Origin: an uncultured Bacillales bacterium
GTDB lineage: Bacteria > Bacillota_I > Bacilli_A > RF39 > UBA660
Assembly (NCBI GenBank): GCA_902477075.1
Contig: CABSFU010000001.1
Coordinates: 94,555-158,554, forward strand
DNA: 64,000 nucleotides
Direction of reading: 5' to 3'
Shown: in pieces, positions 5,602 through 58,536 of the stretch
How the letters are laid out: the number at the start of each line of letters is the position of its first letter
How positions within the stretch are numbered: the first letter of the stretch is position 1
Notes under the pieces: model-generated
What the model was told of the DNA's origin: nothing
The model's input: only the letters and a program-made list of their open reading frames with translations
The model's database searches: none
Translations under genes and position numbers: made by a program

Positions 5602-5639
5602 GTAGTTTTAATACTTGAAATTCTAATGCTTATTTGATA

Positions 5640-5776
5640 TATTAGACATGTAAATAAAAATAGTAATATAGTTTGTAGATAGCAAATTTTTAGCGTTTGC
5701 TATATGCAAACGGGGGGGGGGAGTATTTTTAAATACCTCTTCTTTTTTGTTGCTATAAAAGGGAAGGATGAAGGAC
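5640..5776 (+). promoter_or_regulatory. Conserved 5' leader of pilin-like gene copy 1: TAGTAATAT -10-like box, GTTTGC-N5-GCAAAC palindrome, G10 homopolymer (5712-5721), hairpin plus U-run
   Basis: About 85-90% identical to the sequences upstream of the paralogs at 35940 and 40495, although the upstream genes there are unrelated. Confidence 0.45.
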
Positions 5777-6784
5777 ATGAAAAAAGGATTTACATTAATA
5801 GAATTATTAGCTGTGATAGTAATATTATCCGTGATTACCTTAATTACAGTACCAATGATAACAAATGTAATCGAAGAAAGTAAAAAGAAAGCACTAGCAT
5901 CTAGTGTAGAGGGACTAGTAGAATCCGCTAATTTGTATGCCATAGAAAAAGATGGAGTCTATGAATTTTTATTTGATGAAGAACACAAAGGAAGTACAAA
6001 AAAAGGAGAAAGCCTAGATTATAGAGGAACCATAGATGGGGAAGGAAAACTCTATTTAGATAAAGAGGGAAATGTAAGTGTTTGTATCTCAAATGATAAT
6101 TATTATGTATATAAAAACTATAATAGTGGAATTATCGTAGGAGAGAGAAAAGCTGGAAATTGTATCATAGGATTTGATGCTTTAACAAATAAATATGTAG
6201 CAATGTTAGATAATGGAACAGGGAATGTTAGTAATGTGTATTCCAAAGATGAAGTAAATAACTTAGTAGATACAAAAGTAACAGAATTAGATACTAAAAT
6301 AACAAATAATACAAATGAAATCACAAACATGAAAAGTAATATAGAAGAATTACAAAATAATTTAAATAACTATGCTTTACAAAGTGAATTGGATAAGACA
6401 AATACCAATGTAGAAAACTTATCTAGTTTGGTAAATAGCAATCAAAAATCAATACAAGAATTACAAAATTCATCTTCTAATTTAAATGGAACACATGGTA
6501 TTGTAGTTGTATTTAGTAGACTTCATTCCAATGTTTATGCTCTTTCTAATACTGTTTACATGGGAGATTTAAGAAATAAAAGTGTTTCTATAACTAATGC
6601 AGCTATCGACGGAGAAGTGTTCTTAACTGACTCAGAACTAAAAATTATAAATCAATATCTTGAAGTAGGAAAAGACGGTATAACTGTTAAATTAGAAAAT
6701 TTAAATGATTCTAACGTAGTTGCTTTAGCAAAAAAATTAGCAACAGCAGCACTTAATATGGTAGTAGTAATATCTGATAAATAA
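5777..6784 (+). CDS. prepilin-type N-terminal cleavage/methylation domain protein (pilin-like/pseudopilin-like), paralog 1
   Basis: MKKGFTLIELLAVIVILSVITLITVPM class-III signal peptide; Asn/Thr-rich coiled-coil middle region; unique C-terminal ~100 aa. Confidence 0.6.
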   Translation: MKKGFTLIELLAVIVILSVITLITVPMITNVIEESKKKALASSVEGLVESANLYAIEKDGVYEFLFDEEHKGSTKKGESLDYRGTIDGEGKLYLDKEGNVSVCISNDNYYVYKNYNSGIIVGERKAGNCIIGFDALTNKYVAMLDNGTGNVSNVYSKDEVNNLVDTKVTELDTKITNNTNEITNMKSNIEELQNNLNNYALQSELDKTNTNVENLSSLVNSNQKSIQELQNSSSNLNGTHGIVVVFSRLHSNVYALSNTVYMGDLRNKSVSITNAAIDGEVFLTDSELKIINQYLEVGKDGITVKLENLNDSNVVALAKKLATAALNMVVVISDK

Positions 6785-6825
6785 AATAAAAAAATTCTAA
6801 TTTTATGTTAGAATTTTTAATTTTA

Positions 6826-8445
6826 TTATTTTTTTTCAAGAAAATCAATAATGTTAGGTATAATTTGTTTTTTTCTAGAAACACATTCAGGAATAAAAGC
6901 TCCTTCTTTTAAATCATTGATATCAAAACAATTATCTAAAATATCTTGTGCTGTTTCATTGTAAATAATATAAGAACCATTTTTTATAATATCTGTAACA
7001 AATAATGCAATAATTAAATTATCATTATGCTCGGCTACTTCATTAACAAGGTCTACATAGTCATTTAGTTCATCTAATACATCATTAGGTGACAAAGTCA
7101 GAATTTGTCCAATACCGATTTTATTATTATTAACATTAAAATTTTTAAAATCGGAATATAAAACTTCTTCTTTTGTTTTATTTTTTAATGAAGAACCGGC
7201 TTTTAACATTTCCATTCCATAATTTTCATAATCTACATTTGCTATATTTGCTAAATCAAATACAGCTTCTTTATCTTTGCTTGTTGTAGTAGGAGATCTA
7301 AATAATAAGGTATCTGAAATTATACCAGATAACATTAATCCTGCTATATTAGCTGGAATTTCAATATTATTTTCTTTGTACATTGCATAAAGAATAGTAT
7401 TTGTACTACCAACTGGCATATTTCTAAAGCTAATAGGATATTTTGTATCTAAATTTCCAATTTTATGGTGATCAACTATTTCCATAATTTCTGCTTCTTC
7501 AATACCATCTACACTTTGTAACATTTCATTATGATCTACTAGAATTACTTTTTTCTTTGTTGCGTCATTAATATCTGATAATCTTAACATTCCTAAACAT
7601 TTATCTTCTTTGTCTAATACAGGATAATTTGTATATTTATTTTTTTTCGTAATAGCAATAAAATCATCAACATCTTCATCATCTGTAATTGTAATAATAT
7701 TTTCTTTTAATGTAATACTGTCTACATAATTAGATAACCAAATTTTTCTTGTTGTATCAAAACTGCTTTCATTGGATAAAATAATATTGATGTGATATTG
7801 TTTTGCTAAAGCTAAATGTTCATCCTTAATAAAAGAATTTTTAGTTAAAATAATCATTTTAACTTTCGATTTAATAGCATATTCAATGATACTATGTCTA
7901 TCTCCAACAATTAAAACAGTATCTTTATTTAGTGATATATTTTCAATAAAGGTAGTACTACTATAAGAGGTAACTACTACATTACCATTTATTTCATCAT
8001 CAAATTTTAATATTTCCTTCGCATTTAATGTTTTAATGATATTATTGTATGAAGTACACAAAGTATCAATTTTATCATTTATTTGATGTTTAGCAATATC
8101 TTTTAACGAAACTAGTCCAACAAATTTATCATTTTTAACAACTGGAACAGATCCGACATTATATTCGTTCATATAAAGAAAACAATTATAGATTGTGTCA
8201 TGATAATCTTTTGCATAGTTTTTTAAATAATTTAAATCTTTAATTTGTAATCTAACATCATTTAAATATTTTGGTTCTTTTTCATTGAAATAATTCAAAA
8301 CAAACTTTGTTTCATTGTTAGGATGCCCTAGAATTCTAGCTTCTGTATTCAATCCTAATTTATTTTTTAAATAAGATAGTGAAATAGCTGCCGTTACACT
8401 ATCGGTATCAGGTTTTTTGTGCCCAAAAATGCTTATTTTTTCCAT
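6826..8445 (-). CDS. CBS-domain-containing family II (Mn-dependent, DHH/DHHA2) inorganic pyrophosphatase
   Basis: HKKPDTDS DHH motif, a central CBS pair, and GIISDTLLFRSPTTT DHHA2 motif. Confidence 0.7.
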   Translation of the reverse strand: MEKISIFGHKKPDTDSVTAAISLSYLKNKLGLNTEARILGHPNNETKFVLNYFNEKEPKYLNDVRLQIKDLNYLKNYAKDYHDTIYNCFLYMNEYNVGSVPVVKNDKFVGLVSLKDIAKHQINDKIDTLCTSYNNIIKTLNAKEILKFDDEINGNVVVTSYSSTTFIENISLNKDTVLIVGDRHSIIEYAIKSKVKMIILTKNSFIKDEHLALAKQYHINIILSNESSFDTTRKIWLSNYVDSITLKENIITITDDEDVDDFIAITKKNKYTNYPVLDKEDKCLGMLRLSDINDATKKKVILVDHNEMLQSVDGIEEAEIMEIVDHHKIGNLDTKYPISFRNMPVGSTNTILYAMYKENNIEIPANIAGLMLSGIISDTLLFRSPTTTSKDKEAVFDLANIANVDYENYGMEMLKAGSSLKNKTKEEVLYSDFKNFNVNNNKIGIGQILTLSPNDVLDELNDYVDLVNEVAEHNDNLIIALFVTDIIKNGSYIIYNETAQDILDNCFDINDLKEGAFIPECVSRKKQIIPNIIDFLEKK

Positions 8446-9099: not shown

Positions 9100-9318
9100 G
9101 TACGTAAAAATGTTGAAGGAAAGAAAAATATCTTCTTTTTGTAGAGACTTTGTGGTTGGTGTAAACAAAGAAAAGAAATATTGTAAATGGTTCTGGAGTT
9201 GCCTATGTGATATTTAGCTTAGGCCGTAATCTTGCGTTAAAAGTTTGAGATAAAAACAATGTTTTTAAATAAGGTGGTACCGCGATAAATTCGCCCTTAT
9301 AAGGTACTTTTTTTTGTT
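9100..9318 (+). promoter_or_regulatory. T-box riboswitch leader (probably Met-specific) ahead of metG
   Basis: Stem-I AGAGA motif at ~9143; canonical T-box sequence AAGGTGGTACCGCG at 9269-9284; downstream hairpin and U8 run 9310-9317 immediately 5' of the metG RBS. Confidence 0.65.
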
Positions 9319-9334
9319 GTTTAAGGAGGATTTT

Positions 9335-10888
9335 ATGAAAGAAAAATTTTATATTTCAACTGCAATAGCTTATGCTTCTGCAAAACCCCATATTGGAAAT
9401 ACTTACGAAATTGTTTTAGCAGATTCTATTGCTCGTTATAAAAGACTATTAGGATATGATGTTTATTTTCAAACAGGTACTGATGAACATGGGGAAAAAA
9501 TAGAAATTAAAGCTAGAGAAAAAGGAATCCAACCACAAGAATATGTAGATGAAAATTCCTTAGAAGTTCGCAAAATTTGGGATGTTATGAATACAAGTTA
9601 TGATAAATTTATTCGTACTACAAATGCATCTCATAAGGAAATGGTAGCTAAAATTTTTAAAAAGTTATATGATCAGGGAGATATTTATAAAGGAATTTAT
9701 CAAGGCCTTTATTGTACACCTTGTGAGTCTTTCTGGACAGAAACACAGTTAGTAGACGGCAAATGTCCTGATTGTGGCAGAGAAGTACATGTCGCAGAAG
9801 AAGAGGCTTATTTCTTTAAATTGAGCAATTATAGTAAAAGATTAGAAGAATATATTGAAACACACCCAGAATTTATTAAACCTGAAAGTAGAAAAAATGA
9901 AATCGTAAATAACTTTATAAAACCAGGGTTACAAGACCTTTGTGTATCTCGTACATCATTTGACTGGGGTATTCCAGTATCATTTGATGATAAACATGTT
10001 ATTTATGTATGGATTGATGCTTTAAGCAACTATATTACTTTCTTAGGATATGATGTAGATGGTAATCATTCAGAAGAATTTAAAAAATATTGGCCAGCTG
10101 ATATTCATTTAATCGGTAAAGATATTTTACGTTTTCACACAATTTATTGGCCAATTATGTTGATGGCTTTAAATTTACCACTTCCAAAACAAGTTTTCGG
10201 TCATCCATGGGTATTGTTTGGAAATGACAAGATGAGTAAATCGAAAGGAAATATTTTATATGCTGATGATTTAGTAAAAGAATTTGGTGTAGATGCTATT
10301 CGTTATTATTTACTTCATGAAATACCTTATTCTAATGATGGATCAATTACTTATGAATTAATTATTGATCGTATCAATTCTGATTTAGCAAATATTTTAG
10401 GAAATTTAGTAAACCGTACGATTTCTATGTGTCAAAAATATTTTAATGGAATCGTCTATGAACCAACTACTTACACTGAATTAGACTTAGAATTAAGAGA
10501 TATGGTAATGTCTTTACCTAATAAAGTAAAAGCAAAAATGGATGATTTGAGAGTAGCAGAAGCTATTGATGAGATATTTGAGGTATTAAGAAGATGTAAT
10601 AAATATATAGATGAAACAACTCCATGGATTTTAGCAAAAGAACAAAATGAGGAAAGGTTAAAAACAGTATTGTATACATTACTAGAATCAATTAGAAGTT
10701 GCGCTGTAATGTTGCAACCATTTTTACCAGATACAGCAGATGAAATTTTTAAACAATTAAATACAGAAAACAGATATATTGACAGTATTAATTTTAAAGG
10801 AATGGATCCATTAATTAAATTGAATGAACCAACTCCTTTATTCTTAAGAATTGATAAAGAAAAAAAATTACAAGAATTATCTAAATAG
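9335..10888 (+). CDS. metG: methionine--tRNA ligase (short form)
   Basis: HIGN (HIGH-type) motif, CxxC...CxDC zinc knuckle and KMSKS motif; RBS GGAGGA. Confidence 0.9.
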   Translation: MKEKFYISTAIAYASAKPHIGNTYEIVLADSIARYKRLLGYDVYFQTGTDEHGEKIEIKAREKGIQPQEYVDENSLEVRKIWDVMNTSYDKFIRTTNASHKEMVAKIFKKLYDQGDIYKGIYQGLYCTPCESFWTETQLVDGKCPDCGREVHVAEEEAYFFKLSNYSKRLEEYIETHPEFIKPESRKNEIVNNFIKPGLQDLCVSRTSFDWGIPVSFDDKHVIYVWIDALSNYITFLGYDVDGNHSEEFKKYWPADIHLIGKDILRFHTIYWPIMLMALNLPLPKQVFGHPWVLFGNDKMSKSKGNILYADDLVKEFGVDAIRYYLLHEIPYSNDGSITYELIIDRINSDLANILGNLVNRTISMCQKYFNGIVYEPTTYTELDLELRDMVMSLPNKVKAKMDDLRVAEAIDEIFEVLRRCNKYIDETTPWILAKEQNEERLKTVLYTLLESIRSCAVMLQPFLPDTADEIFKQLNTENRYIDSINFKGMDPLIKLNEPTPLFLRIDKEKKLQELSK

Positions 10889-35821: not shown

Positions 35822-35939
35822 TTACTGATGTTATTGATTTAGAAAGATAGATTTTAAATTTCTATCTTTTTTAGTGTAGAAGTTAGAATGAGAATCAATT
35901 GAAGCAAAGGTACTTGAAAAAATTATTGTTATTTTGTAT

Positions 35940-36069
35940 AATGGATATAGATAAAAAATAGTAATATAGTTTACGTGTAGCAGTTAAATTTCATGTTTGC
36001 AATATGTAAACGGGGGGGGTATTTTAAAAATACTCTCTTTTTTGTTGCTATAAAAGGAAGGAGGAGGTT
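35940..36069 (+). promoter_or_regulatory. Conserved 5' leader of pilin-like gene copy 2 (G8 tract 36012-36019)
   Basis: Same conserved blocks as at 5640-5776 and 40495-40614. Confidence 0.45.
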
Positions 36070-36990
36070 ATGAAAAGAAAAGGATTTACGCTTATTGAAT
36101 TACTAGCTGTAATTGTAATATTATCAGTAATTACATTAATTACAGTACCAATGATAACCAGTGTAATAGAAGAAAGTAAAAAGAAAGCACTTGTATTTAG
36201 TGTACAAGGATTAATAGAATCCGCTAATTTATACGCTATCGAAAATGAAGGAGTGCATGAATTTTTATTTGATAAAGAACATCAAGGAAGTACCATAAAA
36301 GGAGAAAGTTTAGATTATAAAGGAAAAATAGAAGGAGAAGGGAAACTCTATATAGATAAAGAAGGAAATACGAGTATTTGTATTTCGAATGATACCTATT
36401 ATGTATATAAAAACTATAATAGTGAAATTATCATAGGAGAAAGAAGCAAAGATAATTGTAATATTGAATATGATGCTTTAACGAATAAATATGTAGCCTT
36501 TTTAGAAAGTACAGGAAGCGGAAGTAATGTATACTCCAAAGATGAAGTCAATAACTTAGTAGATAGTTTAGATACTAAAATAACAAATAATACTAGTGAA
36601 ATAACAAATCTAAAAAGTAATATCGAAGAGTTACAAAATAACTTAAATAATCTATCTAGCGTTGTTAATAATAATAAAGAAAAAATAGATAGTTTAAATA
36701 GCAAGTTAGTTAATGTAATCGTTAAAAATATATATAAAGAAACAAAATCATATTCAATAGTTAAAGGTGTAAATGTGGTGGTATTTGATATTCCACAAAT
36801 TGATGGGTATAAACCCATTATGTATGTAGCTAATGCTCATGCATGGTATCCTAACATAAGGCCATACGGTAATGAAAGCTCTCTAATATATGATAATGCA
36901 AGTAACATTGGTGTTTATTATTACTTTGATGCAGATTTTACACTTGATGGTGGTAATTTTAGTTGTACAGTATTATATATTACTGTTTAA
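36070..36990 (+). CDS. prepilin-type N-terminal domain protein (pilin-like), paralog 2
   Basis: MKRKGFTLIELLAVIVILSVITLITVPM; N-terminal ~200 aa shared with the other two paralogs; unique C-terminus. Confidence 0.6.
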   Translation: MKRKGFTLIELLAVIVILSVITLITVPMITSVIEESKKKALVFSVQGLIESANLYAIENEGVHEFLFDKEHQGSTIKGESLDYKGKIEGEGKLYIDKEGNTSICISNDTYYVYKNYNSEIIIGERSKDNCNIEYDALTNKYVAFLESTGSGSNVYSKDEVNNLVDSLDTKITNNTSEITNLKSNIEELQNNLNNLSSVVNNNKEKIDSLNSKLVNVIVKNIYKETKSYSIVKGVNVVVFDIPQIDGYKPIMYVANAHAWYPNIRPYGNESSLIYDNASNIGVYYYFDADFTLDGGNFSCTVLYITV

Positions 36991-37201
36991 TGTATATTTT
37001 GCAATGATAATGTAAGAGAACATTTTATATACATTATCATTTTTTATTGAAAAGATATCCATAATTTTTTTATCGTCAAATTTATCTTTATTTATCATTT
37101 TATTTTTCCTTTTACTATTTTATTAAAATAAAAAAATAAGGTTTATTAAGCTTAAAAATTTTTAAATAATAAGCAACCTTATGTATATATTGTGTAGTAT
37201 T

Positions 37202-38452
37202 TTACTTTATTTTTCTATAGATAGGTAGTAGTTTTTTATAAGAAAAATATAAAAATTTATGAATTACTAAATCAAATTCTCCAATAAATTCAGTATATTC
37301 TCCTCCAAATCTTTTTTTGAATGAGTGGATTCCAAAAATAGGATTGGATTTATCTGGATTTGCTATTCCACTTGTACCAAAGAAATCTACTATTTTGTAA
37401 CCTTCTTCATGTGCATCCTTAATAATTTGATAATATAGTAAATAATTAGAATTTAGCTCTCTTAAAATATTGCTATTGCCTCCATGAATGGTCCATACTT
37501 TATCTCCATATTTTACAGTAATAATAGATGAAAGTATAATATGTTCTTTTTCAATAGTATGAATGAAATCAATTTCTTTTTTTGTTTTATCAATTTTGTT
37601 AATCAAATCTTTTTTAATATTTTCTTGTTTTTCTTTATTTTTATATTTAGGATCATCTAAATTTTTAAGTTCTAATTCTAAATATTCCAAATTTTTTTCA
37701 TAAGTAATAATTAAATCATGAATGTCAACTTCTACAATATATAGATCACTCATATTTTGTTTATTTAAAATGGCATAAAAATTTTTATAATATTCCATTG
37801 GTGTTAAATGTAGGTGTTCTCTAACGGCTGTATCTTTCATTGTTTCATAAAATTTAGGAATATCTTCTATAGAACCTTTATACATATTTAAATGATATTG
37901 ATTTCCTTTATTTAAAATTTTCCTAGTAGTTGGATGAATATTTTTATAGATATCATCTAAGCTTTTATTAATATCTAATCTGAAAGTAAATCTAGGTTGC
38001 TCATTTACAAATTCTGTATTAAATCCTTTATGCTTATAACCTAGCATTTCTAAATAATCTACTACTTTTTCATGAGAATTTCCTAGTACATTTCCATCTT
38101 GATCCAAATCATGTAACTTTACATCAGGATCAATTTTTACAAACAAAGCTTTATTTTTTTTAGCAAACTTTTTAATATAATTAGTAAATGTATTTAGTAA
38201 TTTGTAATTACTATAATCCATTATATATCCTCTAGGGCAATAGAAATAGCAGTAATTTCCAATTAATTTTTTTTTGAGTAATAATGCAGTAGCAACTAAT
38301 TTATCATTTTCCTTTAATCCAACGTAATAAGGAGTAAAGTTTTTATATTTCATAATTTCACCAAAATAATGACTTTGCATGAAATGGGATTTATTGCTAT
38401 TTAAAACGAAATCTTCATACTCATTTATATCTATGTCTGTTATAAATTTCAT
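37202..38452 (-). CDS. FemAB-family peptidoglycan interpeptide-bridge aminoacyltransferase
   Basis: ~416 aa with two acyltransferase lobes and a central coiled coil; FemX/MurM-like. Confidence 0.7.
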   Translation of the reverse strand: MKFITDIDINEYEDFVLNSNKSHFMQSHYFGEIMKYKNFTPYYVGLKENDKLVATALLLKKKLIGNYCYFYCPRGYIMDYSNYKLLNTFTNYIKKFAKKNKALFVKIDPDVKLHDLDQDGNVLGNSHEKVVDYLEMLGYKHKGFNTEFVNEQPRFTFRLDINKSLDDIYKNIHPTTRKILNKGNQYHLNMYKGSIEDIPKFYETMKDTAVREHLHLTPMEYYKNFYAILNKQNMSDLYIVEVDIHDLIITYEKNLEYLELELKNLDDPKYKNKEKQENIKKDLINKIDKTKKEIDFIHTIEKEHIILSSIITVKYGDKVWTIHGGNSNILRELNSNYLLYYQIIKDAHEEGYKIVDFFGTSGIANPDKSNPIFGIHSFKKRFGGEYTEFIGEFDLVIHKFLYFSYKKLLPIYRKIK

Positions 38453-38561
38453 TATGAACCTCTTTTCTATCTTTTTTAAGTATATCCTTTATTTAAAGAA
38501 TAGTCAAATGATTCTCTTTTAAAAAAATGTAATTTATAGTATACTAATTATGGGTGATAAT

Positions 38562-39827
38562 ATGATAGAAAAATTAACGCCGGAAGAATTTAATGAATTT
38601 TCTAAAAACAGTAATCAAGGTACTTTTTTTCAATCTTCTTATTGGGGAGAATTAAAATCTTTTACAGGTTGGACTCACCATATGGTTGGGTTAAAAAAAG
38701 ATAATAAAGTAGTAGCAGCAACTCTTTTATTAGGAAAAAAAATTCCGTTACTTGGAAAATATATTTATTATGCACCAAGAGGTTTTTTGATAGATTATCA
38801 TGATAATGAACTTTTAGAATTGTTTGTTTCTAGTATGAAACAATATATCAAAAAAAATAAAGGAATTTTTATTAAAATTAATCCTTATGTAGAGTACCGA
38901 AAAAGGGATATTAATGGCGATATTATGAATGATGAAACAAATCAAAGTATTATCGATAAATTGATTGATTTAGGTTTTGTTCATAATGGTTTTACTATTA
39001 ATTATGGAATTGATTTAGAACCAAGATGGATTTCTGTTTTAGATTTAAAAGGAAAAACAGAAGAAGACATTTTATCTAATATGAGACAATCGACTAGATG
39101 GAGAGTGAATAATTCCTATAAACATGGTTTAGAATTAAATGAAATAGATGAATCTAGATTACCTGAATTTAAAAAGTTGATGGAACATACAGGGGAAAGA
39201 AGAGGGTTTATTGATCGACCTTTATCTTATTATCAAAAAATGTATGAAGCATTTAAAAAAGATGATAATATTAAAATTATGCTTGTCGATCTTAATATCG
39301 AAGATTATTTAACAAACTTAAAAAATCAGAAAAATGAATTAATGCTTAAAATAGCAGAAGTTAAAACAAAAAATATGACAACGCGTAATCAAAATTATTT
39401 AAATGAGTTACAAACTCAATTGAAATCATTAGATGAAAGAATTGAAATGTTGTACATTTTACTAGAAACAAAGGGTAAAGTAATTACAGTAGCGGGTGGT
39501 TTATTTATGACATTTGGAAAACAAGTAATTTCTTTATTTGGTGCTTCTTATCAGGAGTATATGAAATTTAATGGTCAATATTTTTTAAATTTTAAAATGA
39601 TAAAATATGCTTTAAATAATGGTTTTGAAAAATATAATTTTTACGGAATAACTGGCGAATTTAATGAAGATTCTCCAATGTTTGGATTATTTGATTTTAA
39701 AAGAGGATTTAATGCTGAAGTAGTTGAATTAATAGGAGAATTTACTTTAGTTACTAGAAAACTTAGTTATAAAGTTTATAGATTAATGTTGAAAATATAT
39801 CATAAATTAAAGAAAAGAGGAAAATAA
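38562..39827 (+). CDS. FemAB-family peptidoglycan interpeptide-bridge aminoacyltransferase (second copy, divergent)
   Basis: Paralogous to 37202-38452; RBS GGGTGA. Confidence 0.7.
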   Translation: MIEKLTPEEFNEFSKNSNQGTFFQSSYWGELKSFTGWTHHMVGLKKDNKVVAATLLLGKKIPLLGKYIYYAPRGFLIDYHDNELLELFVSSMKQYIKKNKGIFIKINPYVEYRKRDINGDIMNDETNQSIIDKLIDLGFVHNGFTINYGIDLEPRWISVLDLKGKTEEDILSNMRQSTRWRVNNSYKHGLELNEIDESRLPEFKKLMEHTGERRGFIDRPLSYYQKMYEAFKKDDNIKIMLVDLNIEDYLTNLKNQKNELMLKIAEVKTKNMTTRNQNYLNELQTQLKSLDERIEMLYILLETKGKVITVAGGLFMTFGKQVISLFGASYQEYMKFNGQYFLNFKMIKYALNNGFEKYNFYGITGEFNEDSPMFGLFDFKRGFNAEVVELIGEFTLVTRKLSYKVYRLMLKIYHKLKKRGK

Positions 39828-51494: not shown

Positions 51495-53654
51495 TTAAAA
51501 AGACAACAATATAATCTTGAGAGAAAAATTCTCTTTTAAGTATCGACCGCCTTTTTCTTTCTTATAAATTACTTGTTTTATTATAGTTGATAATAAAGCG
51601 TTTTTTTCTTCTGCGGTCATATCTTTTGAATATTTACTTATAACATCTTCTAAAATTGGTATAGCTTTCTTTTTACTATATAAATCTTTAGTTCTATCTT
51701 TTGACTTAGATAGTTCTGTTTTTTGATTTAATAATGTTTCTAATTGTTCATTTAAAGTATTAGTTCTTTTAATAAATAAATCTTGAGTATATGCTCCAGT
51801 CTCTACTAATTCGCAAGCCTTTTCTATTTGGCTTTTTATTTTATCTATTTCGTGATCTATTGCTTCTATCATTTCCTTATTAGTACATATTTCTTTTTTT
51901 ACTGCTTCTTCATAATTATTAACATAGTTTTTATATTCACTCATTATTATTTTAAGAGATTTTAATATTTTATCTTCTACAAGTTCTAATTCACTTGATA
52001 CACACTTACATCTAGGTCTACTACACATTAAAGTATCTGTATGTGGTGGAGTTATGCTTTCTTCTATTGTAGTTATAGCTTTATCAAACTCGTTTGTTTC
52101 TATATTCAATAGTTTTTTTAGATCCTCCCATTTATCAGCGTGTGGTATACAAAATTTCTCGTCGTTAGAACTAAACCAATGATCCACAGAGTTTTTAGAA
52201 ACGTGTAGAGCTCTAGCTATGTCATTAAGACTATAATTTCCTTTATGTTCCCTTAATAATAATCGTAATTTAGGCTTATCTATATCATAAATACGTTTAG
52301 CGGTAGGCTTAGCGTCTTTTCTTAAATAATATGGACGTCTAGTCATATTATTACCACAATAGCCACATACAACCAAACCTAATAAAGGGTTTTTCATTTC
52401 TTTATTATCTGGCACTGTTTTAAGTCTGTTAGATAAAAATTTAGCTTCTATCTGTTGTTTTATATCTTCGCCGAGTATTGCTTCGTGTTTACCTCTAACA
52501 AGCGTAAAATCGTCATTATTAGGGTTTTTCTTAACAATATGTCCATTTACTAGTGTCTTAGTAGTTTTACGTCTGTCCCACGTCAAATAGCCGTATATAG
52601 TGTAACCCTGTAATATATTTCTAACCATATTAGCGGTCCACTCTTTAGACTTTCTAGGTTTTATTTTAAGATAATTAAGATAGTGTGCTATATTAGTAGC
52701 TCTCATATCATTTAATATAATCTTAATATTTTCTCCTGGTTTAAAAAAGTTATGAGGTATATGTATATTGTTTATATCTATATTATAGCTAGCTGCTATA
52801 CTTTCCAATGTATCATTTTCTTTTATTTTATATGGTAATGATTTACTATTAACTGTTAATCTTATTTCTTGATCTACTTTTAAATCTAAATTACAAGTGA
52901 TTATATCTTTCTTATGTGTTCCAAACAATTTAGCTATATCTGATATAATCTCGTTTTCTTTAACAGTGTAAGTAGTATTTAGTCCGTTTAAGAATAAATC
53001 AGCTAATAATTTTACTACTTTAGACTCTGACTCATTTTCTACTAAAACATAACCTTTCTCGTTAGGTATTTTCTGTTTATTATAACCGTATGGCAATACA
53101 GAACCAACGTATTTACCGTCTTTAACACTTCTTAATCTACCACGAGCTAATATACGTTTAGTATATTTTAAATATTTTCTAGCTTGATATAAACCGTCTT
53201 CAAAATAAGATAAATCGTCCTCGTTATCTAAATTATATATTTTCATAGGAGTTATTATCTTTGTGTTGGAATATTGAAAAGCTTGAGCTATTATTCCCTG
53301 GTCCATAGTATTACCACGAGCTAGACGTTCTATTTCAATACATACAACTCCTTTTACACGATCTTCTTCTATTAAAGATAATACTTCTTGAATTATTGGA
53401 CGATCTTCGATAGTATCTCCAGACGCTACCTCTCTATAAATATTATGCTCTGGTATTGGCTTACCGAAAATACTTACAATAAAGTCTTGTAATTCTTTTT
53501 CGTGTCTTTGTAAAGTCTTTTCTATAGACTCGTCTTTATAATAGTCCATATCTTTACGTGATTTTCTTAAATATATTATAAACATATCTAGTATCTCGTC
53601 GACAGTAAGGTCCCTAGATACGTTCATTATTTGTAAAAATGTATCTAAATTCAT
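51495..53654 (-). CDS. large serine recombinase (phage integrase)
   Basis: YLRKSRKD catalytic Ser region, recombinase domain, CGYCG...C zinc ribbon and C-terminal coiled coil; 719 aa. Confidence 0.85.
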   Translation of the reverse strand: MNLDTFLQIMNVSRDLTVDEILDMFIIYLRKSRKDMDYYKDESIEKTLQRHEKELQDFIVSIFGKPIPEHNIYREVASGDTIEDRPIIQEVLSLIEEDRVKGVVCIEIERLARGNTMDQGIIAQAFQYSNTKIITPMKIYNLDNEDDLSYFEDGLYQARKYLKYTKRILARGRLRSVKDGKYVGSVLPYGYNKQKIPNEKGYVLVENESESKVVKLLADLFLNGLNTTYTVKENEIISDIAKLFGTHKKDIITCNLDLKVDQEIRLTVNSKSLPYKIKENDTLESIAASYNIDINNIHIPHNFFKPGENIKIILNDMRATNIAHYLNYLKIKPRKSKEWTANMVRNILQGYTIYGYLTWDRRKTTKTLVNGHIVKKNPNNDDFTLVRGKHEAILGEDIKQQIEAKFLSNRLKTVPDNKEMKNPLLGLVVCGYCGNNMTRRPYYLRKDAKPTAKRIYDIDKPKLRLLLREHKGNYSLNDIARALHVSKNSVDHWFSSNDEKFCIPHADKWEDLKKLLNIETNEFDKAITTIEESITPPHTDTLMCSRPRCKCVSSELELVEDKILKSLKIIMSEYKNYVNNYEEAVKKEICTNKEMIEAIDHEIDKIKSQIEKACELVETGAYTQDLFIKRTNTLNEQLETLLNQKTELSKSKDRTKDLYSKKKAIPILEDVISKYSKDMTAEEKNALLSTIIKQVIYKKEKGGRYLKENFSLKIILLSF

Positions 53655-53775
53655 TATAGCACTTTCTTTCTTTATAATTTTATGCTATAATCGTATAGAA
53701 AAGCCTATACAATTATAGTTGGTTGTTTCTTCTATTTTGTTTTAAGTGTGATAGCTTTTAGGGTTTTTCATTTCA

Positions 53776-53810
53776 ACGCTTCGTGTTCGCGCACGAGGCG
53801 TCTTTTTTTT
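53776..53810 (+). terminator. GC-rich hairpin plus T8 (terminator-like) between int and the repressor
   Basis: ACGCTTCGTG-ttcgcg-CACGAGGCGT followed by TTTTTTTT. Confidence 0.4.
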
Positions 53811-54037
53811 ATGCTTTTTTACCTTTCGAGCAAGAAAACGTACATTTCGAGCAATGTTAATCACAATTAACGGTAAAAAATGGTAAAATGTTGTATTAAA
53901 ATTTATAATATACCCCTAAGGAGGGGGTTAGTATGAAAACTAAATATGATGTGTTATATGAAAAACTGCTTAATGATCATATTAACATCAGTTTATTTAT
54001 TAAACTACTTGAGTATATCAAATAAGATATACTCTTT

Positions 54038-54406
54038 TTATTTGTCCTCTTTATCAATTATAAATTCTTTGTTTTTTTCTATAAATTTCATAAGCTTATC
54101 AAAATTTTCTTCTGATAAATCTTCGCCGTCAAAAAGATTATTTTCTTTTAAAGCGTCTTTCAATTTACTTTTGATATTTTTGGTAGCTTTTTTTTCTTCC
54201 CAGTCAAGCATATAGTTAGCGTCTACTCCTAATACTTTACATAAAAGCATTATGCTATCTGCGTCTGGTTTATGATTTCCACTTTCCCAGTCGCTAATAG
54301 TGTTATGAGATACGCCTAATTGCTTGGCAAGCTCTTTTTGTGTCATATTTTTATTTTTTCTTGAGTTCCTTATATTATCACATAAAGCCATATTAGTTAC
54401 CTCCAT
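54038..54406 (-). CDS. cI-like phage repressor (XRE HTH)
   Basis: MTQKELAKQLGVSHNTISDWE HTH; divergent from the cro-like gene. Confidence 0.7.
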   Translation of the reverse strand: MEVTNMALCDNIRNSRKNKNMTQKELAKQLGVSHNTISDWESGNHKPDADSIMLLCKVLGVDANYMLDWEEKKATKNIKSKLKDALKENNLFDGEDLSEENFDKLMKFIEKNKEFIIDKEDK

Positions 54407-54560
54407 TTCATTAAAATTTTATCACAAAAAATATGTATAGTAAATAAATAATTTCGAAAAAATCGAAAAAATTAGCGTTTTTGTATTGACATTTCGATAA
54501 TACCGAATTACAATGTATATAGAGTTCGACAATATCGAAGTCTTGGAAGGAGGAAATTAA
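54407..54560. promoter_or_regulatory. phage immunity switch region: three palindromic operators (54453-54467, 54493-54507, 54525-54539) with a rightward sigma-A-like promoter (-35 TTGACA 54486-54491, -10 TACAAT 54509-54514)
   Basis: TTCGAaaaaaTCGAA, TTCGAtaataCCGAA and TTCGAcaataTCGAA; the middle operator fills the 17-bp promoter spacer. Confidence 0.55.
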
Positions 54561-54818
54561 ATGTCAAACCCTAAATCACTAGAAGTAGGAAAAAAGATAA
54601 AGTTACTTTTGGTAGAACATAATATCAACCAAAATCAAGTAGCAAGATACCTAAATGTTAGTGATTCTTTATTTTCTGATAAGTTAAATGGAAAAGTAAA
54701 GATTACTGTAGACGAATTTTACGATATTATTACTTATCTAAATGAAGAATTTAACATTACTGTAGACGCTAATTACTTTATGCCACAAACACCAAACGAA
54801 ACATCAGACACTAACTAA
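54561..54818 (+). CDS. Cro-like XRE-family regulator
   Basis: INQNQVARYLNVSDSLFSD HTH; RBS GGAAGGAGG. Confidence 0.55.
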   Translation: MSNPKSLEVGKKIKLLLVEHNINQNQVARYLNVSDSLFSDKLNGKVKITVDEFYDIITYLNEEFNITVDANYFMPQTPNETSDTN

Positions 54819-54842
54819 CATAAAATTTAATGAGGTGTTGAA

Positions 54843-55085
54843 ATGGAAAAAAACGAAAGCTATCACACAATAAAAAACTTAACACTAGGTCAAACAGAAA
54901 TTGAGATATGTATAGAGAGTATTCCAACAATAGAAGAAAAAAGAAATCATTTAATAAAAATATATGACGTCGTAAATGATATAGCTAGAAAAGCTGAAAA
55001 ACGCGGCGTTGATACTTCTAAATGGTTTTATACAGAAAAACAATTAAAGCTCTTAAAACAAGATCCAATAAATGAATTTATCTAG
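54843..55085 (+). CDS. phage hypothetical protein
   Basis: ORF in the early operon. Confidence 0.3.
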   Translation: MEKNESYHTIKNLTLGQTEIEICIESIPTIEEKRNHLIKIYDVVNDIARKAEKRGVDTSKWFYTEKQLKLLKQDPINEFI

Positions 55086-55462
55086 TAAATCAATTTAAAA
55101 AAACAAAGGAGAAACAATTATGAAAAAAAAATACAGGCTTAAAAAATGGGTAAAAGTAACCCTAAATATATTATGCGCAATAAGCGTATTTATAATACTT
55201 GCTTTATTAGTGAAGAAAGGAGTTAATGACTTTGAAGATTTGGCTAAGCAATGTGATAAGGAATATGGCTATACTTGTACTTATTACGATATTAGACAAT
55301 ACTCTTTAGGTAAATAAATTATGTATGTTAAAGAAAATAAAAAAAGATTTATGAATTGGATCAGAACTCATAAATCAAGTTGTAAACTTTCTTATAATTT
55401 ACTCTCTAATTGTACCATAATTTGGGGGTAAAAGTCAAAAAATGGACGATTGGAGGTAAAAC

Positions 55463-56131
55463 ATGAAAGATAGTTATATAATGCACTGCGATTACGGAAA
55501 TCATTTTGAATTATTAACAGACGCTGAATTAGGTCGGCTTATAAGAGATGTAAATAACTATGTTAAAAATGGTGTTTTGCCTCAATATACAAAAGAGGAT
55601 CGTGTTCTAAATATGGCCTTTAGTTTTATGAAAACTAACATTGATATAGAAACAGAAAAATATATAAAAAAATGTGAAAAAAATCGAGAAAATGGCCGTC
55701 GTGGTGGTCGACCTAGAAACCCAGAAAAACCGAACGGTTTTGAAGAAAACCCACAAGAAACGAAAAAAGCCGATACTGATACTGAAACTGATACTGATAC
55801 TGAAACTGATACTGATACTGAAACTGATACTGAAACAAACATAAAAAAAAGTGTGTGTGATAAAAGCGCACGCGCAAAAGAATTTTATTGTCATTTAGGA
55901 AGTGATTATAAATCGGAGTCATGTTTCTACTGCATGAAAAAACAGATATGTCCTAATAAGGAGTCTACGGAGTTTAGATTAAACCACCGAAACGAAACTT
56001 TCGACGAGTGGAATAAAAGACACGAAGATTATCGGGAACAACTTATTGAGGACTTAAAGTCCAGGGGGAAGGATCCAGATATAGAGCTTATCGACTATGA
56101 CTGGTTAAATGAAGATAATGATATAGATTAG
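55463..56131 (+). CDS. phage early protein with an internal acidic (TDTE)n repeat; possible replication-module protein
   Basis: Contains an 18-bp tandem repeat; basic RRGGRPRN stretch; C-terminal Cys cluster. Confidence 0.35.
   Translation: MKDSYIMHCDYGNHFELLTDAELGRLIRDVNNYVKNGVLPQYTKEDRVLNMAFSFMKTNIDIETEKYIKKCEKNRENGRRGGRPRNPEKPNGFEENPQETKKADTDTETDTDTETDTDTETDTETNIKKSVCDKSARAKEFYCHLGSDYKSESCFYCMKKQICPNKESTEFRLNHRNETFDEWNKRHEDYREQLIEDLKSRGKDPDIELIDYDWLNEDNDID
55782..55847 (+). repeat. tandem repeat, 18-bp unit GATACTGATACTGAAACT x3.7
   Basis: Direct reading of the sequence. Confidence 0.8.
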
Positions 56132-56151
56132 AAAATGGAGGAATAATTATT

Positions 56152-56427
56152 ATGAAAAATACTATAACAAAACAAGATATAGATAACATTTTAAAAGATA
56201 CACTAATTAAAGTTGAACAATACGGAGATAAAACAACCGTTTTAAAAGCTACATTGCCTAATGACTTTGTAATTGTTGAGAGTTCTAGCTGCGTAGATCC
56301 TGCAAACTTCGATATGAAAATTGGAGAAGAAATATGTATGGACAAGCTAGTTAATAAAATTTGGGAACTTGAAGGCTATAAACTTCAATGTCAAACTAAG
56401 GAGGTAGCAGAAAATGGAAATAACTAG
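56152..56427 (+). CDS. phage hypothetical protein
   Basis: ORF with RBS GGAGGAATAATTATTATG. Confidence 0.35.
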   Translation: MKNTITKQDIDNILKDTLIKVEQYGDKTTVLKATLPNDFVIVESSSCVDPANFDMKIGEEICMDKLVNKIWELEGYKLQCQTKEVAENGNN

Positions 56428-56668
56428 CGTTAAAGTAAAAAAAATAAATGAAGAAAACTCTCGTTTAGTTGGAGCTGCTTCTGTAGTTGTTGATAAAGAA
56501 TTTATTATCAAAGATATAAAAATTATTAAAGGAGACGACCGTCTATTCCTGGCTATGCCTAGTCAAAAAATGCCAGACGGCTCATACGCAGATTTAGCAC
56601 ACCCTCTTAATGTTGAGTGTCGCAAAAAATTTGAAGATATTATTTTAGCAGAATATGATAAGTGCTAA
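56414..56668 (+). CDS. spoVG: SpoVG-family protein (phage-encoded)
   Basis: MEITSVKVKKINEE...FLAMPSQKMPDGSYADLAHPLN closely parallels SpoVG (MEVTDVRLRRV...[22 protein letters not shown]). Confidence 0.7.
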   Translation: MEITSVKVKKINEENSRLVGAASVVVDKEFIIKDIKIIKGDDRLFLAMPSQKMPDGSYADLAHPLNVECRKKFEDIILAEYDKC

Positions 56669-57200
56669 TGAATTATGGAAGTCAATAGAATATGATACTC
56701 GTTATCAAGTATCAAACTATGGACGTTTTAGAAAGAAAAACCCTAAAAATGGTTATAGATATTTAAAACCTTTTAGAAAACATAATCTATTTTTAGTAAA
56801 GATTAAAGATAAAGATTTTAACTGTGCTCGATTAGTCGCTAATGCTTTTATTAAGCAATTAGCTTCTAATGATAGAGTCTATCATAAAAATAAAATAGAA
56901 TTTGATAATTACTATAAAAATTTAGAAGTTATATCTTTAAAAGAGCTTGGTAAACGAACTGGCTATATATCAAAATCTAAACGAGTTGTAGAAGTTAAAA
57001 ACGGCGAGATTATAAGAGACTGGCCTTCAAGTAGAAAAGCCGCTAAAGACTTATATATTTCTTATCAGACCGTTTCCGACTACTGCAATAATAAGGTAGA
57101 AAGCCCTATGTTTAATCTTATGTGGGAAGACGATTATTTTGACGAAGTATTAGAGCCGTTTAAATGGGAACATAAAAAAAGAAAGGAAAAAAAGAAATGA
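56655..57200 (+). CDS. NUMOD4-motif/HNH-type homing-endonuclease-like protein
   Basis: WKSIEYDTRYQVSNYGRFR NUMOD4 signature. Confidence 0.55.
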   Translation: MISANELWKSIEYDTRYQVSNYGRFRKKNPKNGYRYLKPFRKHNLFLVKIKDKDFNCARLVANAFIKQLASNDRVYHKNKIEFDNYYKNLEVISLKELGKRTGYISKSKRVVEVKNGEIIRDWPSSRKAAKDLYISYQTVSDYCNNKVESPMFNLMWEDDYFDEVLEPFKWEHKKRKEKKK

Positions 57201-57559
57201 AAACTAAAATCAAAAACACAATAAAAGACATCATTGATTATACGCTAACAAATGAATTTAAAGCTTTAGTAATGATTATGTTATTTATGTTCTTATGTGT
57301 TTCCCTATTCTGGGGTGCTATATGTACAGTAATGACTAATGACATTACAGAAGTAGCTACAGAGCAAAAAGAAGAAAATATAAAACTTCAAGCAGAATAT
57401 GACAAGTTATCTCAAGAGTACGCTCGTATGAAAATGGCTTATGAGGAAACTTACGAACTATTTACTACTTGTCAAGAGTCTACATCTTGGTATGAACAAT
57501 TTTATTATGACAATGTAGATCCAACAACTGGAGAAATTGAGGGGGAATATTATGAGTAG
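57197..57559 (+). CDS. phage membrane/coiled-coil protein, hypothetical
   Basis: One TM segment followed by a coiled coil. Confidence 0.3.
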   Translation: MKTKIKNTIKDIIDYTLTNEFKALVMIMLFMFLCVSLFWGAICTVMTNDITEVATEQKEENIKLQAEYDKLSQEYARMKMAYEETYELFTTCQESTSWYEQFYYDNVDPTTGEIEGEYYE

Positions 57560-57893: not shown

Positions 57894-57904
57894 GGAGTGA
57901 TGTT

Positions 57905-58534: not shown

Positions 58535-58536
58535 TT

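What the first reader, a model, noticed from the sequence alone, without database searches (positions are those of the whole stretch)
5640..5776. Conserved ~120-bp leader carrying a variable homopolymeric G tract (G10/G8/G6) upstream of each of three pilin-like paralogs
The same leader precedes the genes at 5777, 36070 and 40615, although the upstream neighbours (mfd, rpmE, rpiB) are unrelated. The conserved blocks are a TAGTAATAT -10-like box, a GTTTGC-N5-GCAAAC palindrome, the G run, a GAGTATTT/AAATACCTC hairpin, a U-run (terminator/attenuator-like), and an RBS. The only block that differs markedly in length between copies is the G run: 10, 8 and 6 G. In a genome of ~27% GC a G10 homopolymer is highly improbable by chance. 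It is the classic substrate for slipped-strand mispairing. This points to phase-variable contingency control of a pilin-like family in a spore-forming Firmicute, whether transcriptional or attenuator-based. It could alternatively be an undescribed cis-regulatory RNA.
Basis: seen in the sequence. Interest (0 to 1): 0.8.

Follow-up and report, generated by a model that had tools for sequence, protein, structure and literature searches.

The report
Variable poly-G tract in pilin leaders
Each member of a large family of pilin-like surface-protein genes in an uncultured human-gut bacterium is preceded by the same transcribed leader, in which a run of 6-10 G forms one arm of a terminator-like hairpin and changes length between otherwise identical strains; this looks like a mutational switch or dimmer for surface proteins, but no effect on expression has been measured.

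Summary
G10 (5712-5721), G8 (36012-36019) and G6 (40559-40564) sit in a shared leader upstream of three type IV pilin-like paralogs. They are the only G/C runs of 7 or more in a 26.8% GC window.

The leader recurs in 37 further copies from other gut assemblies. All carry G6-G10 (one tract interrupted) and all are linked to pilin-like genes. No Rfam family matches.

A consensus-quality promoter (TTGAAA-N14-TGnTATAAT) lies upstream, so the G run is most likely transcribed. It would then form the 5' arm of a hairpin whose 3' arm is an all-pyrimidine run followed by Us, an intrinsic-terminator shape. A second hairpin (P2) tolerates variation almost only through G-U wobble.

At the rpiB-pilin locus, 11 strains carry G6, G7, G8 or G9. 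Strain pairs with zero substitutions over 2.3 kb differ only in this tract. At three other loci the length is the same in the three strains seen at each.

Best reading (about 0.4): a slippage-prone G tract tunes read-through of a leader terminator. Rivals are a weak internal promoter whose spacer is 9+n, and a structural tract whose length changes are neutral.

This is a new variant of a known kind. No expression effect or within-population switching is shown.

The parts
5615..5643 (+). Copy A promoter: -35 TTGAAA (5615-5620), 17-nt spacer, TG-extended -10 TATATT (5638-5643)
   Evidence: 10 of 12 matches, TG present. Across paralogs the hexamers are conserved while the spacer sequence and the upstream DNA are not.
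5656..5674 (+).
   Evidence: three exact copies in the window. Nearly invariant in alignment A3. Its role is unknown. Pairing with the 3' block (P1) appears in the minimum-energy folds, but natural variants do not support it.
5671..5711 (+). Copy A P2 hairpin (GUUUGUAGAUAGCAAA...UUUGCUAUAUGCAAAC), which includes the GTTTGC-N5-GCAAAC palindrome
   Evidence: 14 pairs, 98.4% of cells paired in 27 sequences. Variation is mostly G-U wobble, and two pairs show compensatory changes.
5712..5721 (+). Copy A G10 tract, followed by AG at 5722-5723 (possibly an interrupted G12)
5712..5748 (+). Copy A terminator-like hairpin P3. The G tract plus AGUAUUU pairs with AAAUA plus the pyrimidine run CCUCUUCUUUUUU (5736-5748).
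   Evidence: about -14.6 kcal/mol.
5743..5760 (+). Copy A invariant 3' block TTTTTTGTTGCTATAAAA, followed by the Shine-Dalgarno GGGAAGG (5761-5767)
5777..6784 (+). Pilin-like gene A (prepilin motif MKKG/FTLIELL)
35914..35942 (+). Copy B promoter TTGAAA-17-TATAAT
   Evidence: 11 of 12 matches.
35954..35972 (+). Copy B invariant 5' block
35969..36011 (+). Copy B P2 hairpin (GUUUAC...GUAAAC closing pairs, compensatory relative to copy A)
36012..36019 (+). Copy B G8 tract
   Evidence: Also G8 in two other strains.
36012..36040 (+). Copy B terminator-like hairpin (13 pairs), followed by a U run
36038..36055 (+). Copy B invariant 3' block
36070..36990 (+). Pilin-like gene B
   Evidence: structure model.
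40462..40490 (+). Copy C promoter: TTGAAT (40462-40467), 17-nt spacer, TGa-TAAGAT (40482-40490)
   Evidence: Read.
40503..40521 (+). Copy C invariant 5' block
40518..40558 (+). Copy C P2 hairpin
40559..40564 (+). Copy C G6 tract. The same locus has G7, G8 or G9 in ten other assemblies.
40559..40581 (+). Copy C terminator-like hairpin (10 pairs), followed by a U run
40581..40598 (+). Copy C invariant 3' block
40615..41583 (+). Pilin-like gene C

Best explanation
Each pilin-like gene carries its own module of about 160 bp. It consists of a strong sigma-A-type promoter, a leader of roughly 130 nt with a conserved hairpin (P2), and then a terminator-shaped hairpin (P3). The 5' arm of P3 is the G tract. 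Its 3' arm is an all-pyrimidine run that merges into the U tail. The ribosome-binding site and the gene follow.

Because G pairs with both C and U, the helix stays intact whatever the tract length. Each G beyond about the seventh pairs with the proximal U tail.

The tract is a slipped-strand hot spot. Its length changes between otherwise identical strains.

Inferred, not shown: tract length sets how much transcription reads through P3 into the gene. This would be a heritable but reversible dimmer, set independently for each of the many paralogs whose C-terminal domains differ, and would give combinatorial surface variation.

Shown:
- The anatomy of the module.
- The pattern of promoter conservation.
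- Pairing-compatible variation in P2 and P3.
- Length polymorphism of the tract between strains.

Inferred:
- Transcription from the upstream promoter.
- Termination at P3.
- Dependence of expression on tract length.
- Switching within populations.
For: Recurrence:
- 40 copies from many assemblies all keep a G tract of 6-10 in a 26.8% GC genome.
- All are linked to pilin-like genes.

Promoter:
- The promoter hexamers, including the TG extension, are conserved across paralogs. The spacer sequence and the DNA upstream of the -35 are not. This places the tract in the transcript.

Hairpins:
- P3 is called as an intrinsic terminator in copies B and C.
- Its energy falls from -9 to -14 kcal/mol as n rises from 6 to 10.
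- The 3' arm varies only by C/U exchange.
- In the divergent L015 and L017 copies the hairpin survives although its inner sequence changes or is deleted.
- P2 and P3 together: 98.6% of cells are paired, against 49-63% when the partners are slid. 12 of 21 pairs vary through wobble, which fits only the + strand RNA.

Tract purity:
- The tract stays pure G. G-to-A changes opposite U would keep pairing and would follow the AT mutational bias, yet only 2 interrupted tracts are seen.

Polymorphism:
- At the rpiB locus 11 strains carry 6, 7, 8 or 9 G.
- L024/L030 against L026/L027, and L025 against L032, have 0 substitutions in 2,288 bp. Their only indel is at the tract.
- T7 and T6 runs in the intergenic region do not vary.

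Literature:
- A base directly upstream of a terminator hairpin that can pair with the U tail, A or G, lowers read-through (bioRxiv 10.64898/2026.07.06.736697).
- G(n) tracts upstream of uspA1 give graded mRNA levels and vary from 6 to 11 between strains (PMC7302503).
Against: - No expression data and no read-level data exist.
- At three loci (mfd, rpmE, ABC/uvrC) the pure tract length is the same in the three strains seen at each: 10, 8 and 7. Mutability is therefore not extreme, or selection holds the state.
- Equilibrium folding predicts that hairpin formation and accessibility of the ribosome-binding site saturate at n of 7 or more. Yet 35 of 40 copies have 8-10 G.
- 12 of 40 copies ('long variant') carry an extra 75 nt with a second promoter-like site downstream of P3, which would bypass the terminator.
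- Covariation is not significant against shuffles (42 of 500 reach the observed value) because the sequences are too similar.
- Homopolymer lengths in short-read assemblies can be miscalled by one base.
- No antiterminator structure was found.
Confidence: 0.4

Rival explanations
1. Promoter-spacer phase variation. The working pilin promoter lies inside the leader: -35 TTGCTA (within the P2 3' arm), a spacer of 9 nt plus the G tract, and -10 TATTTT. G8 gives the optimal 17 bp, G9 gives 18, G10 gives 19 and G6 gives 15. Slippage would then turn each gene up or down, as in Bordetella fim, Neisseria porA/opc and Mycoplasma hyorhinis vlp.
For: The observed lengths of 6-10 map to spacers of 15-19 bp and straddle the 17-bp optimum (sequence). 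This is the pattern typical of known spacer switches (own knowledge). TATTTT is kept in nearly all copies, whereas its pairing partner AAATA varies more: ACATA, AAATT, AAATG and CCCAC are seen. Two leaders lack the upstream promoter but keep this region (L002, L022).
Against: The hexamers match only 8 of 12 consensus positions and are not reported by the scan, while the upstream promoter matches 10-11 of 12 with a TG extension. Conservation of the -35 and -10 candidates is already explained by P2 and P3 pairing, including strand-specific wobble variation. Transcripts starting here would lack the G arm, and their pyrimidine run can then pair with the Shine-Dalgarno sequence (low-n folds). Copy A would have a 21-bp spacer. 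L017 has lost TATTT.
Confidence: 0.15
2. An ordinary leader with a structural G tract. The leader is an attenuator or mRNA-stabilising 5' structure, possibly controlled by an unknown protein or ligand that binds P2 and the conserved blocks. The G run is simply the G-rich arm of the hairpin. Its length differences are near-neutral slippage noise with no regulatory use.
For: Hairpin stability and ribosome-binding-site accessibility are predicted to be almost flat for n = 7-10. Length is constant among three strains at each of three loci. Leader identity between paralogs is no higher than synonymous-site identity. The two invariant blocks, whose function is unexplained, suggest a trans-acting partner.
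Against: A merely structural arm should accept G-to-A changes opposite U and G/C mixtures. Instead a pure homopolymer is kept in 38 of 40 copies in an AT-rich genome, while the opposite arm drifts. A G-U-rich helix is a poor way to build a stable stem. The tract is the only indel between strains with zero substitutions over 2.3 kb. No Rfam family matches and no antiterminator was found.
Confidence: 0.25
3. An independent multi-copy small RNA. The promoter, P2 and P3 form a separate gene for an RNA of about 95 nt placed upstream of every pilin-like gene. Its pyrimidine-rich terminator arm could act in trans on the purine-rich ribosome-binding sites of the family.
For: The module from promoter to terminator is intact in both the short and long variants. 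The long variants have what looks like their own promoter after P3. The CU run is complementary to AAAAGGAAG at the ribosome-binding site (low-n folds). At least 16 copies occur in one metagenome assembly.
Against: In the short variant, 28 of 40 copies, no other acceptable promoter exists between P3 and the start codon about 40 nt away, so the gene must be read from the same promoter. The CU run is sequestered by the G tract in the predicted structure. No expression data exist.
Confidence: 0.1
4. Leader-peptide attenuation of the Streptococcus gallolyticus pil1 type. A short ORF would read through the G tract. Slippage would shift its frame, so that the ribosome either stops before the terminator or melts it.
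For: Frames through the tract end either in the hairpin loop (TAA) or beyond the hairpin, depending on n mod 3. There is precedent in a Gram-positive pilus locus (PMC3894217).
Against: No Shine-Dalgarno sequence precedes any candidate start. The start codons are inconsistent between copies: ATG CAA becomes ATG TAA or TTG TAA in many, and AGCG variants have none. The candidate starts also lie inside the P2 stem.
Confidence: 0.03
5. A recombination signal. The G tract would be a DNA-level structure, a G-rich or G4-like element, that promotes cassette exchange among pilin paralogs, by analogy with the pilE-associated G4 of Neisseria gonorrhoeae.
For: The family shows mosaic C-termini, presence/absence of whole cassettes and one locus with a different downstream neighbour. 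Contigs break inside the genes.
Against: A single run of 6-10 G cannot form an intramolecular quadruplex. The opposite pyrimidine arm and the U tail are explained by an RNA hairpin but not by this model.
Confidence: 0.02

Closest known systems
Moraxella catarrhalis uspA1 upstream G(n) tract
   Same: A homopolymeric G tract a few tens of nt upstream of the ORF of a surface adhesin. Lengths of 6-11 differ between strains, and mRNA changes in a graded way rather than on/off (PMC7302503).
   Different: It is a single gene in a Gram-negative pathogen. No terminator hairpin built from the tract has been described, and there is no multigene family sharing the leader.
Bordetella pertussis fim2/fim3/fimX promoter C stretch; Mycoplasma hyorhinis vlp poly(A); Neisseria porA/opc poly-G/C (own knowledge)
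   Same: Paralogous surface or fimbrial genes each carry the same conserved upstream region with a homopolymer. The independent length of each tract sets expression of that copy.
   Different: In those systems the tract lies between the -35 or activator site and the -10. Here the consensus-quality promoter lies wholly upstream and the tract lies in the transcribed leader. Only a weak internal promoter (8 of 12 matches) would fit that design.
Streptococcus gallolyticus pil1 phase variation by attenuation (PMC3894217)
   Same: A Gram-positive gut-associated bacterium in which a pilus gene is preceded by a leader with a premature terminator, and slipped-strand repeats in the leader decide read-through.
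   Different: There the repeats are GCAGA pentamers inside a translated leader peptide, and the ribosome melts the terminator. Here no credible leader peptide exists and the repeat is itself the terminator arm. The pilus there is sortase-assembled, not type IV.
Clostridioides difficile pilA1 c-di-GMP-II riboswitch (own knowledge)
   Same: A type IV pilin gene of a spore-forming Firmicute controlled through a structured leader with a terminator.
   Different: No match to c-di-GMP-I/II or to any other Rfam model, even at E <= 10. There is no homopolymer in that riboswitch.
Bacillus subtilis pyrG reiterative-transcription attenuator (own knowledge)
   Same: A poly-G segment in the leader RNA pairs with a C+U-rich terminator strand to decide termination.
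   Different: In pyrG the extra Gs are added by polymerase slippage at the 5' end when CTP is low, and they prevent terminator formation. Here the Gs are encoded in the DNA and form the terminator.

Membership tests
Simple-sequence-repeat contingency locus (slipped-strand phase variation) | Homopolymeric tract long enough to slip (about 7 or more) in the promoter, 5' region or ORF | tested here: met
   G6-G10 in 40 of 40 copies, with a mode of 10.
Simple-sequence-repeat contingency locus (slipped-strand phase variation) | Tract length varies between closely related strains while the flanks stay the same | tested here: met
   rpiB locus: 6, 7, 8 or 9 G in 11 strains. Pairs with 0 substitutions in 2,288 bp differ only at the tract. 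Not seen at three other loci with 3 strains each.
Simple-sequence-repeat contingency locus (slipped-strand phase variation) | Length heterogeneity within a population and reversible switching | not testable with these tools
   Only consensus assemblies are available, not reads.
Simple-sequence-repeat contingency locus (slipped-strand phase variation) | Expression depends on tract length | not testable with these tools
   Folding models only.
Promoter-spacer homopolymer switches (fim, vlp, porA/opc type) | Tract lies between the -35 and -10 of the functional promoter | tested here: inconclusive
   The best promoter (10-11 of 12 matches, TG-extended, conserved hexamers) lies upstream and does not contain the tract. 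A weak candidate, TTGCTA-(9+n)-TATTTT (8 of 12), does contain it.
Intrinsic (Rho-independent) terminator / leader attenuator | Stable hairpin immediately followed by a U run, between the promoter and the ORF | tested here: met
   13 and 10 pairs, then a T run; -9 to -14.6 kcal/mol. Copy A has a bulged version.
Intrinsic (Rho-independent) terminator / leader attenuator | Mutually exclusive antiterminator structure or a known effector-binding element | tested here: not met
   No alternative pairing for the G arm was found in the folds. No Rfam family matched.
Described cis-regulatory RNA families (Rfam 15, including c-di-GMP riboswitches) | Covariance-model match | tested here: not met
   Nothing at gathering score in the window except a T-box elsewhere. 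The best hit on the leader is E = 1.1 to a plant miRNA.
Leader-peptide repeat attenuation (S. gallolyticus pil1 type) | Translated short ORF with a ribosome-binding site that spans the repeat | tested here: not met
   No Shine-Dalgarno sequence, and start codons are inconsistent or followed at once by a stop.
Type IV pilin / pseudopilin (downstream genes) | Class III signal peptide with G/FTLIE and a hydrophobic alpha-1 helix | tested here: met
   PF07963 at E about 1e-6 to 1e-7, above its cut-off. The model has helix 8-58 followed by a beta sheet (mean pLDDT 71.7).
Type IV pilin / pseudopilin (downstream genes) | Assembly machinery (PilB/PilC/prepilin peptidase) in the genome | not tested
   None among the 29 window ORFs scanned (9, 10 each). 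The rest of the genome was not available.

The most novel reading that the evidence does not exclude
A phase-variable intrinsic terminator. The hypermutable homopolymer is itself the stem of a leader terminator. It is built from G opposite C/U so that the helix survives slippage in any register. Its length sets read-through for each of more than 15 pilin-like adhesin genes independently, giving an uncultured human-gut Bacilli lineage a combinatorial, heritable and reversible surface repertoire.
Probability: 0.3. Interest if true: 0.75.

Novelty: new variant of a known kind. Interest (0 to 1): 0.6.

Why it matters
Slipped-strand contingency loci are textbook biology for Neisseria, Haemophilus, Campylobacter, Bordetella and mycoplasmas. 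For gut commensals the variation mechanisms I know of are mostly invertible promoters (own knowledge), and the five literature searches aimed at this system found no description of it.

If tract length controls expression, this would be a large repeat-driven surface-variation system in a common but uncultured human-gut member of the Bacilli. It would also be an unusual design, in which the repeat is the terminator stem.

The hypothesis is directly testable from existing metagenomic reads, because the organism is abundant in many public samples. Such tests could explain strain-level differences in adhesion or immune recognition.

The leader is also a candidate new cis-regulatory RNA motif that is absent from Rfam.

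Tried and rejected
1. Known RNA families. The Rfam gathering scan of the window and the E <= 10 scan of copy A gave nothing relevant.

2. Species-representative genomes. A protein-pattern scan of genome contigs returned only an unrelated planctomycete pilin.

3. Viral contigs. A loose pattern gave four chance matches inside unrelated genes. A stricter pattern gave none.

4. Leader-peptide model. Rejected for lack of a ribosome-binding site and of consistent start codons.

5. P1 three-way-junction helix. The two invariant blocks pair in the minimum-energy folds of copies A and B. Natural variants (the 5' arm of L022, the 3' arm of L059) break this pairing without compensation, so I do not claim it.

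6. 'TGCTATAAA' as a downstream extended -10. Rejected because the start site would fall in or after the Shine-Dalgarno sequence.

7. TATAGT as the -10 (scan hits). Its -35 partner is not conserved across paralogs.

8. Orthologues of locus A reached from the DHH-gene side. All seven contigs end inside the pilin gene, which is a repeat-induced assembly break.

9. The 82-aa reading of L31. This retrieved other species that lack the cassette. The 70-aa form worked.

10. Fold search of the pilin-like protein. Only insignificant matches (E >= 0.2) of the C-terminal beta domain to lectins and phage or pyocin fibre tips.

11. Second hairpin in the long variant. RNAalifold on 8 sequences gave no covariation and a different pairing from the one I proposed. 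This remains unresolved.

Full report
OBSERVATION

The three leaders are real and lie where stated. The tracts are G10 at 5712-5721 (followed by AG), G8 at 36012-36019 and G6 at 40559-40564. GGGGGG windows are 11 against 1.8 +/- 1.65 in shuffles. The window is 26.8% GC, and the G8 and G10 tracts are its only G or C runs of 7 or more.

Two blocks are invariant in all three leaders and occur nowhere else in the window without mismatch: AAAAATAGTAATATAGTTT and TTTTTTGTTGCTATAAAA.

The downstream genes carry the prepilin N-methylation motif. The upstream genes are Mfd, L31 and RpiB. The three proteins are 61-74% identical. The first 200 residues or so are conserved and the C-terminal third is unrelated between copies.

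An AlphaFold model of copy B (mean pLDDT 71.7) shows three parts: a pilin head (helix 8-58 plus a sheet), a 64-residue helix and a C-terminal beta domain. That domain has no significant structural match.

ORGANISM AND FAMILY

The window comes from a 177-kb contig of an NCBI metagenome-assembled genome labelled only 'Tenericutes/Mycoplasmatota bacterium'. It encodes SpoIID, and SpoVT/YunB appear at related loci. Its TypA protein has no relative named below order level: the only names given are 'Tenericutes', 'Bacilli' and 'Lactobacillales bacterium' metagenome-assembled genomes, the last two at 87-88% identity. The organism is common in human-gut assemblies. The pilin-like family has 2,128 database relatives at E <= 0.001.

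THE LEADER ELSEWHERE

A DNA pattern from the leader found 16 metagenome loci, 14 of them from one assembly. A profile search of everything fetched by that point gave 33 copies.

By the end I held 40 copies. Their G tracts are 6 (1 copy), 7 (4), 8 (7), 9 (11, plus one interrupted GGTGGGGGG) and 10 (16). None exceeds 10.

Every copy precedes a pilin-like ORF. The one exception is L015, from a more distant organism. There the leader heads a six-gene operon that ends in a pilin-like gene.

Twelve copies are a 'long variant' with about 75 extra nt after the hairpin. This stretch includes a second promoter-like site, TTTACA-N14-TGnTAAACT.

No Rfam family matches.

ANATOMY

It is TTGAAA-17-TATATT or TATAAT, matches 10-11 of 12 positions and has a TG extension.

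Across about 20 independent paralogs the -35 and the extended -10 are conserved at fixed spacing. The spacer sequence and everything further upstream are not. That is the signature of a promoter under selection. The G tract therefore sits at about +62 to +72 of a leader of roughly 130 nt.

Folding gives two elements:
- P2, a 14-pair hairpin that contains the GTTTGC-N5-GCAAAC palindrome.
- P3, in which the G tract plus UAUU pairs with AAUA plus an all-pyrimidine run (consensus CCUCUUCUUUUUU) that merges into the U tail.

The scan calls P3 an intrinsic terminator in copies B and C. Fold z-scores are -3.6, -4.5 and -1.9.

In 27 distinct sequences 98.6% of pair cells are standard pairs, against 49-63% when the partners are slid. 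Twelve of 21 pairs vary on one side through G-U wobble. Two pairs show compensatory change, for example C-G to U-G to U-A. Wobble tolerance fits only the + strand RNA. The shuffle control is not significant, however (42 of 500), because diversity is low.

The 3' arm of P3 changes only between C and U. The G arm stays pure, even though G-to-A changes opposite U would keep pairing.

In L015 the inner stem is replaced, and in L017 it is deleted. In both the pairing of G run with pyrimidine run persists.

IS THE TRACT HYPERMUTABLE?

At the rpiB-to-pilin locus I recovered ten other strains. The 370-nt intergenic region is almost identical among them, and among the short-variant strains the only indel is at the G tract (L025 and L032 carry the long-variant block instead). 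The lengths are 6 (window), 7, 8 (three strains) and 9 (six strains).

Over 2,288 bp upstream of the pilin start, two comparisons show zero substitutions and a single indel event at the tract: L024/L030 against L026/L027, and L025 against L032.

At three other loci the three strains available share one length:
- G10 at the mfd locus, with changes immediately 3' of the tract.
- G8 at the rpmE locus.
- G7 at the ABC/uvrC locus.

The tract is thus the fastest-changing site where change is seen at all. It is not so unstable that every strain differs. One-base miscalls in assemblies cannot be excluded, but they would not explain a range from 6 to 9.

MECHANISM

Hairpin energy falls from about -9 kcal/mol at n = 6 to -14 at n = 10. 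From the seventh G onward the extra Gs pair with the proximal U tail.

A recent systematic study reports that an A or a G directly upstream of a terminator hairpin that can pair with the U tail lowers read-through (10.64898/2026.07.06.736697).

I therefore favour a length-tuned leader terminator, that is, a dimmer for each gene. A weakness is that equilibrium folding of the whole leader changes little between n = 7 and 10. Only at n <= 6 does the pyrimidine run begin to pair with the ribosome-binding site: the unpaired fraction of the Shine-Dalgarno sequence falls from 0.77 to 0.55-0.37. Most copies have 8-10 G.

The main mechanistic rival is an internal promoter, TTGCTA-(9+n)-TATTTT. Here n = 8 gives the optimal 17 bp, so the natural range of 15-19 bp straddles the optimum as in the fim, vlp and porA systems. 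It matches only 8 of 12 consensus positions, and RNA pairing already explains its conservation.

A leader-peptide mechanism like that of S. gallolyticus pil1 (PMC3894217) is rejected for lack of a ribosome-binding site and of consistent start codons.

A neutral, purely structural tract remains a serious possibility.

COMPARISON AND NOVELTY

The logic is that of known contingency loci: a conserved upstream module, carrying an independently variable homopolymer, in front of each member of a variable surface-protein family.

The closest parallels are uspA1 for the position and length range of its G(n) tract (PMC7302503), and pil1 for coupling repeats to a leader terminator.

Three things differ here:
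- The host, an uncultured spore-forming gut member of the Bacilli.
- The gene family, type IV pilin-like proteins with a stalk and a variable C-terminal domain.
- The placement of the homopolymer as the terminator arm opposite a C/U run.

Literature searches found no description of this system. I rate it a new variant of a known kind, with interest 0.6. Its value depends on showing length-dependent expression and heterogeneity within populations, both testable with existing reads and simple reporters.

Noticed in passing
window 9104-9301 (+), upstream of ORF 9314-10888: A T-box leader (RF00230, 118 bits) precedes a class I aminoacyl-tRNA synthetase gene. The synthetase was identified from Pfam hits tRNA-synt_1/1g and Anticodon_1 on the orthologue in L044.
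   Followed up: partly
window ~51495-63100: A probable prophage or integrative element. It has a large serine recombinase (51495-53654, minus strand), a phage-integrase-family gene (57905-58534), a DUF6291 gene and many short same-strand ORFs. The only other G/C runs of 6 in the window lie here (62573-62578 and 62649-62654).
   Followed up: partly
window 35822-37201; compare L053, L056, L055: The whole module of promoter, leader and pilin gene B is a presence/absence polymorphism. In two strains rpmE abuts the FemAB gene directly. In another strain an ORF of 818 aa or more occupies the site.
   Followed up: partly
L026 3305-3441, compared with L024/L027: At the rpiB locus one strain has a 337-aa pilin-like allele followed by an RNase HII gene instead of spoIID, while the 2.3 kb upstream is identical. 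This points to recombination between paralogs at different loci, or to an assembly chimera.
   Followed up: no
L044-L050 (orthologues of window 5777-8445): All seven contigs reached from the DHH-gene side end inside pilin gene A. The conserved 5' two-thirds of the family breaks short-read assemblies, so copy numbers in metagenome-assembled genomes are probably underestimated.
   Followed up: partly
L003, L010, L011, L014, L016-L019, L025, L032 (for example L025 2236-2371): Long-variant leaders carry about 75 extra nt after the terminator-like hairpin. This stretch includes a repeat of the TATAGTTTAC motif, alternative hairpins and a second promoter-like site, TTTACA-N14-TGnTAAACT, with conserved hexamers and a variable spacer.
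   Followed up: partly
L010 6051-6159; window 5712-5723: There are two interrupted tracts: GGTGGGGGG in L010 and G10-A-G in window copy A. Such interruptions would be expected to stabilise tract length. Across 40 copies no pure tract exceeds 10 G although 16 have exactly 10, and this sharp ceiling is unexplained.
   Followed up: partly
window 36070-36990 (model m6a67b5557249): The pilin-like proteins are predicted to have a pilin head, a helix of about 64 residues and a variable C-terminal beta domain. That domain weakly resembles lectins and phage or pyocin fibre tips (E >= 0.2, not significant). No pilus assembly genes were found among the window ORFs scanned.
   Followed up: partly
window 37202-38452 (-) and 38550-39827 (+): Two divergently oriented FemAB-family genes sit between pilin loci B and C.
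   Followed up: no
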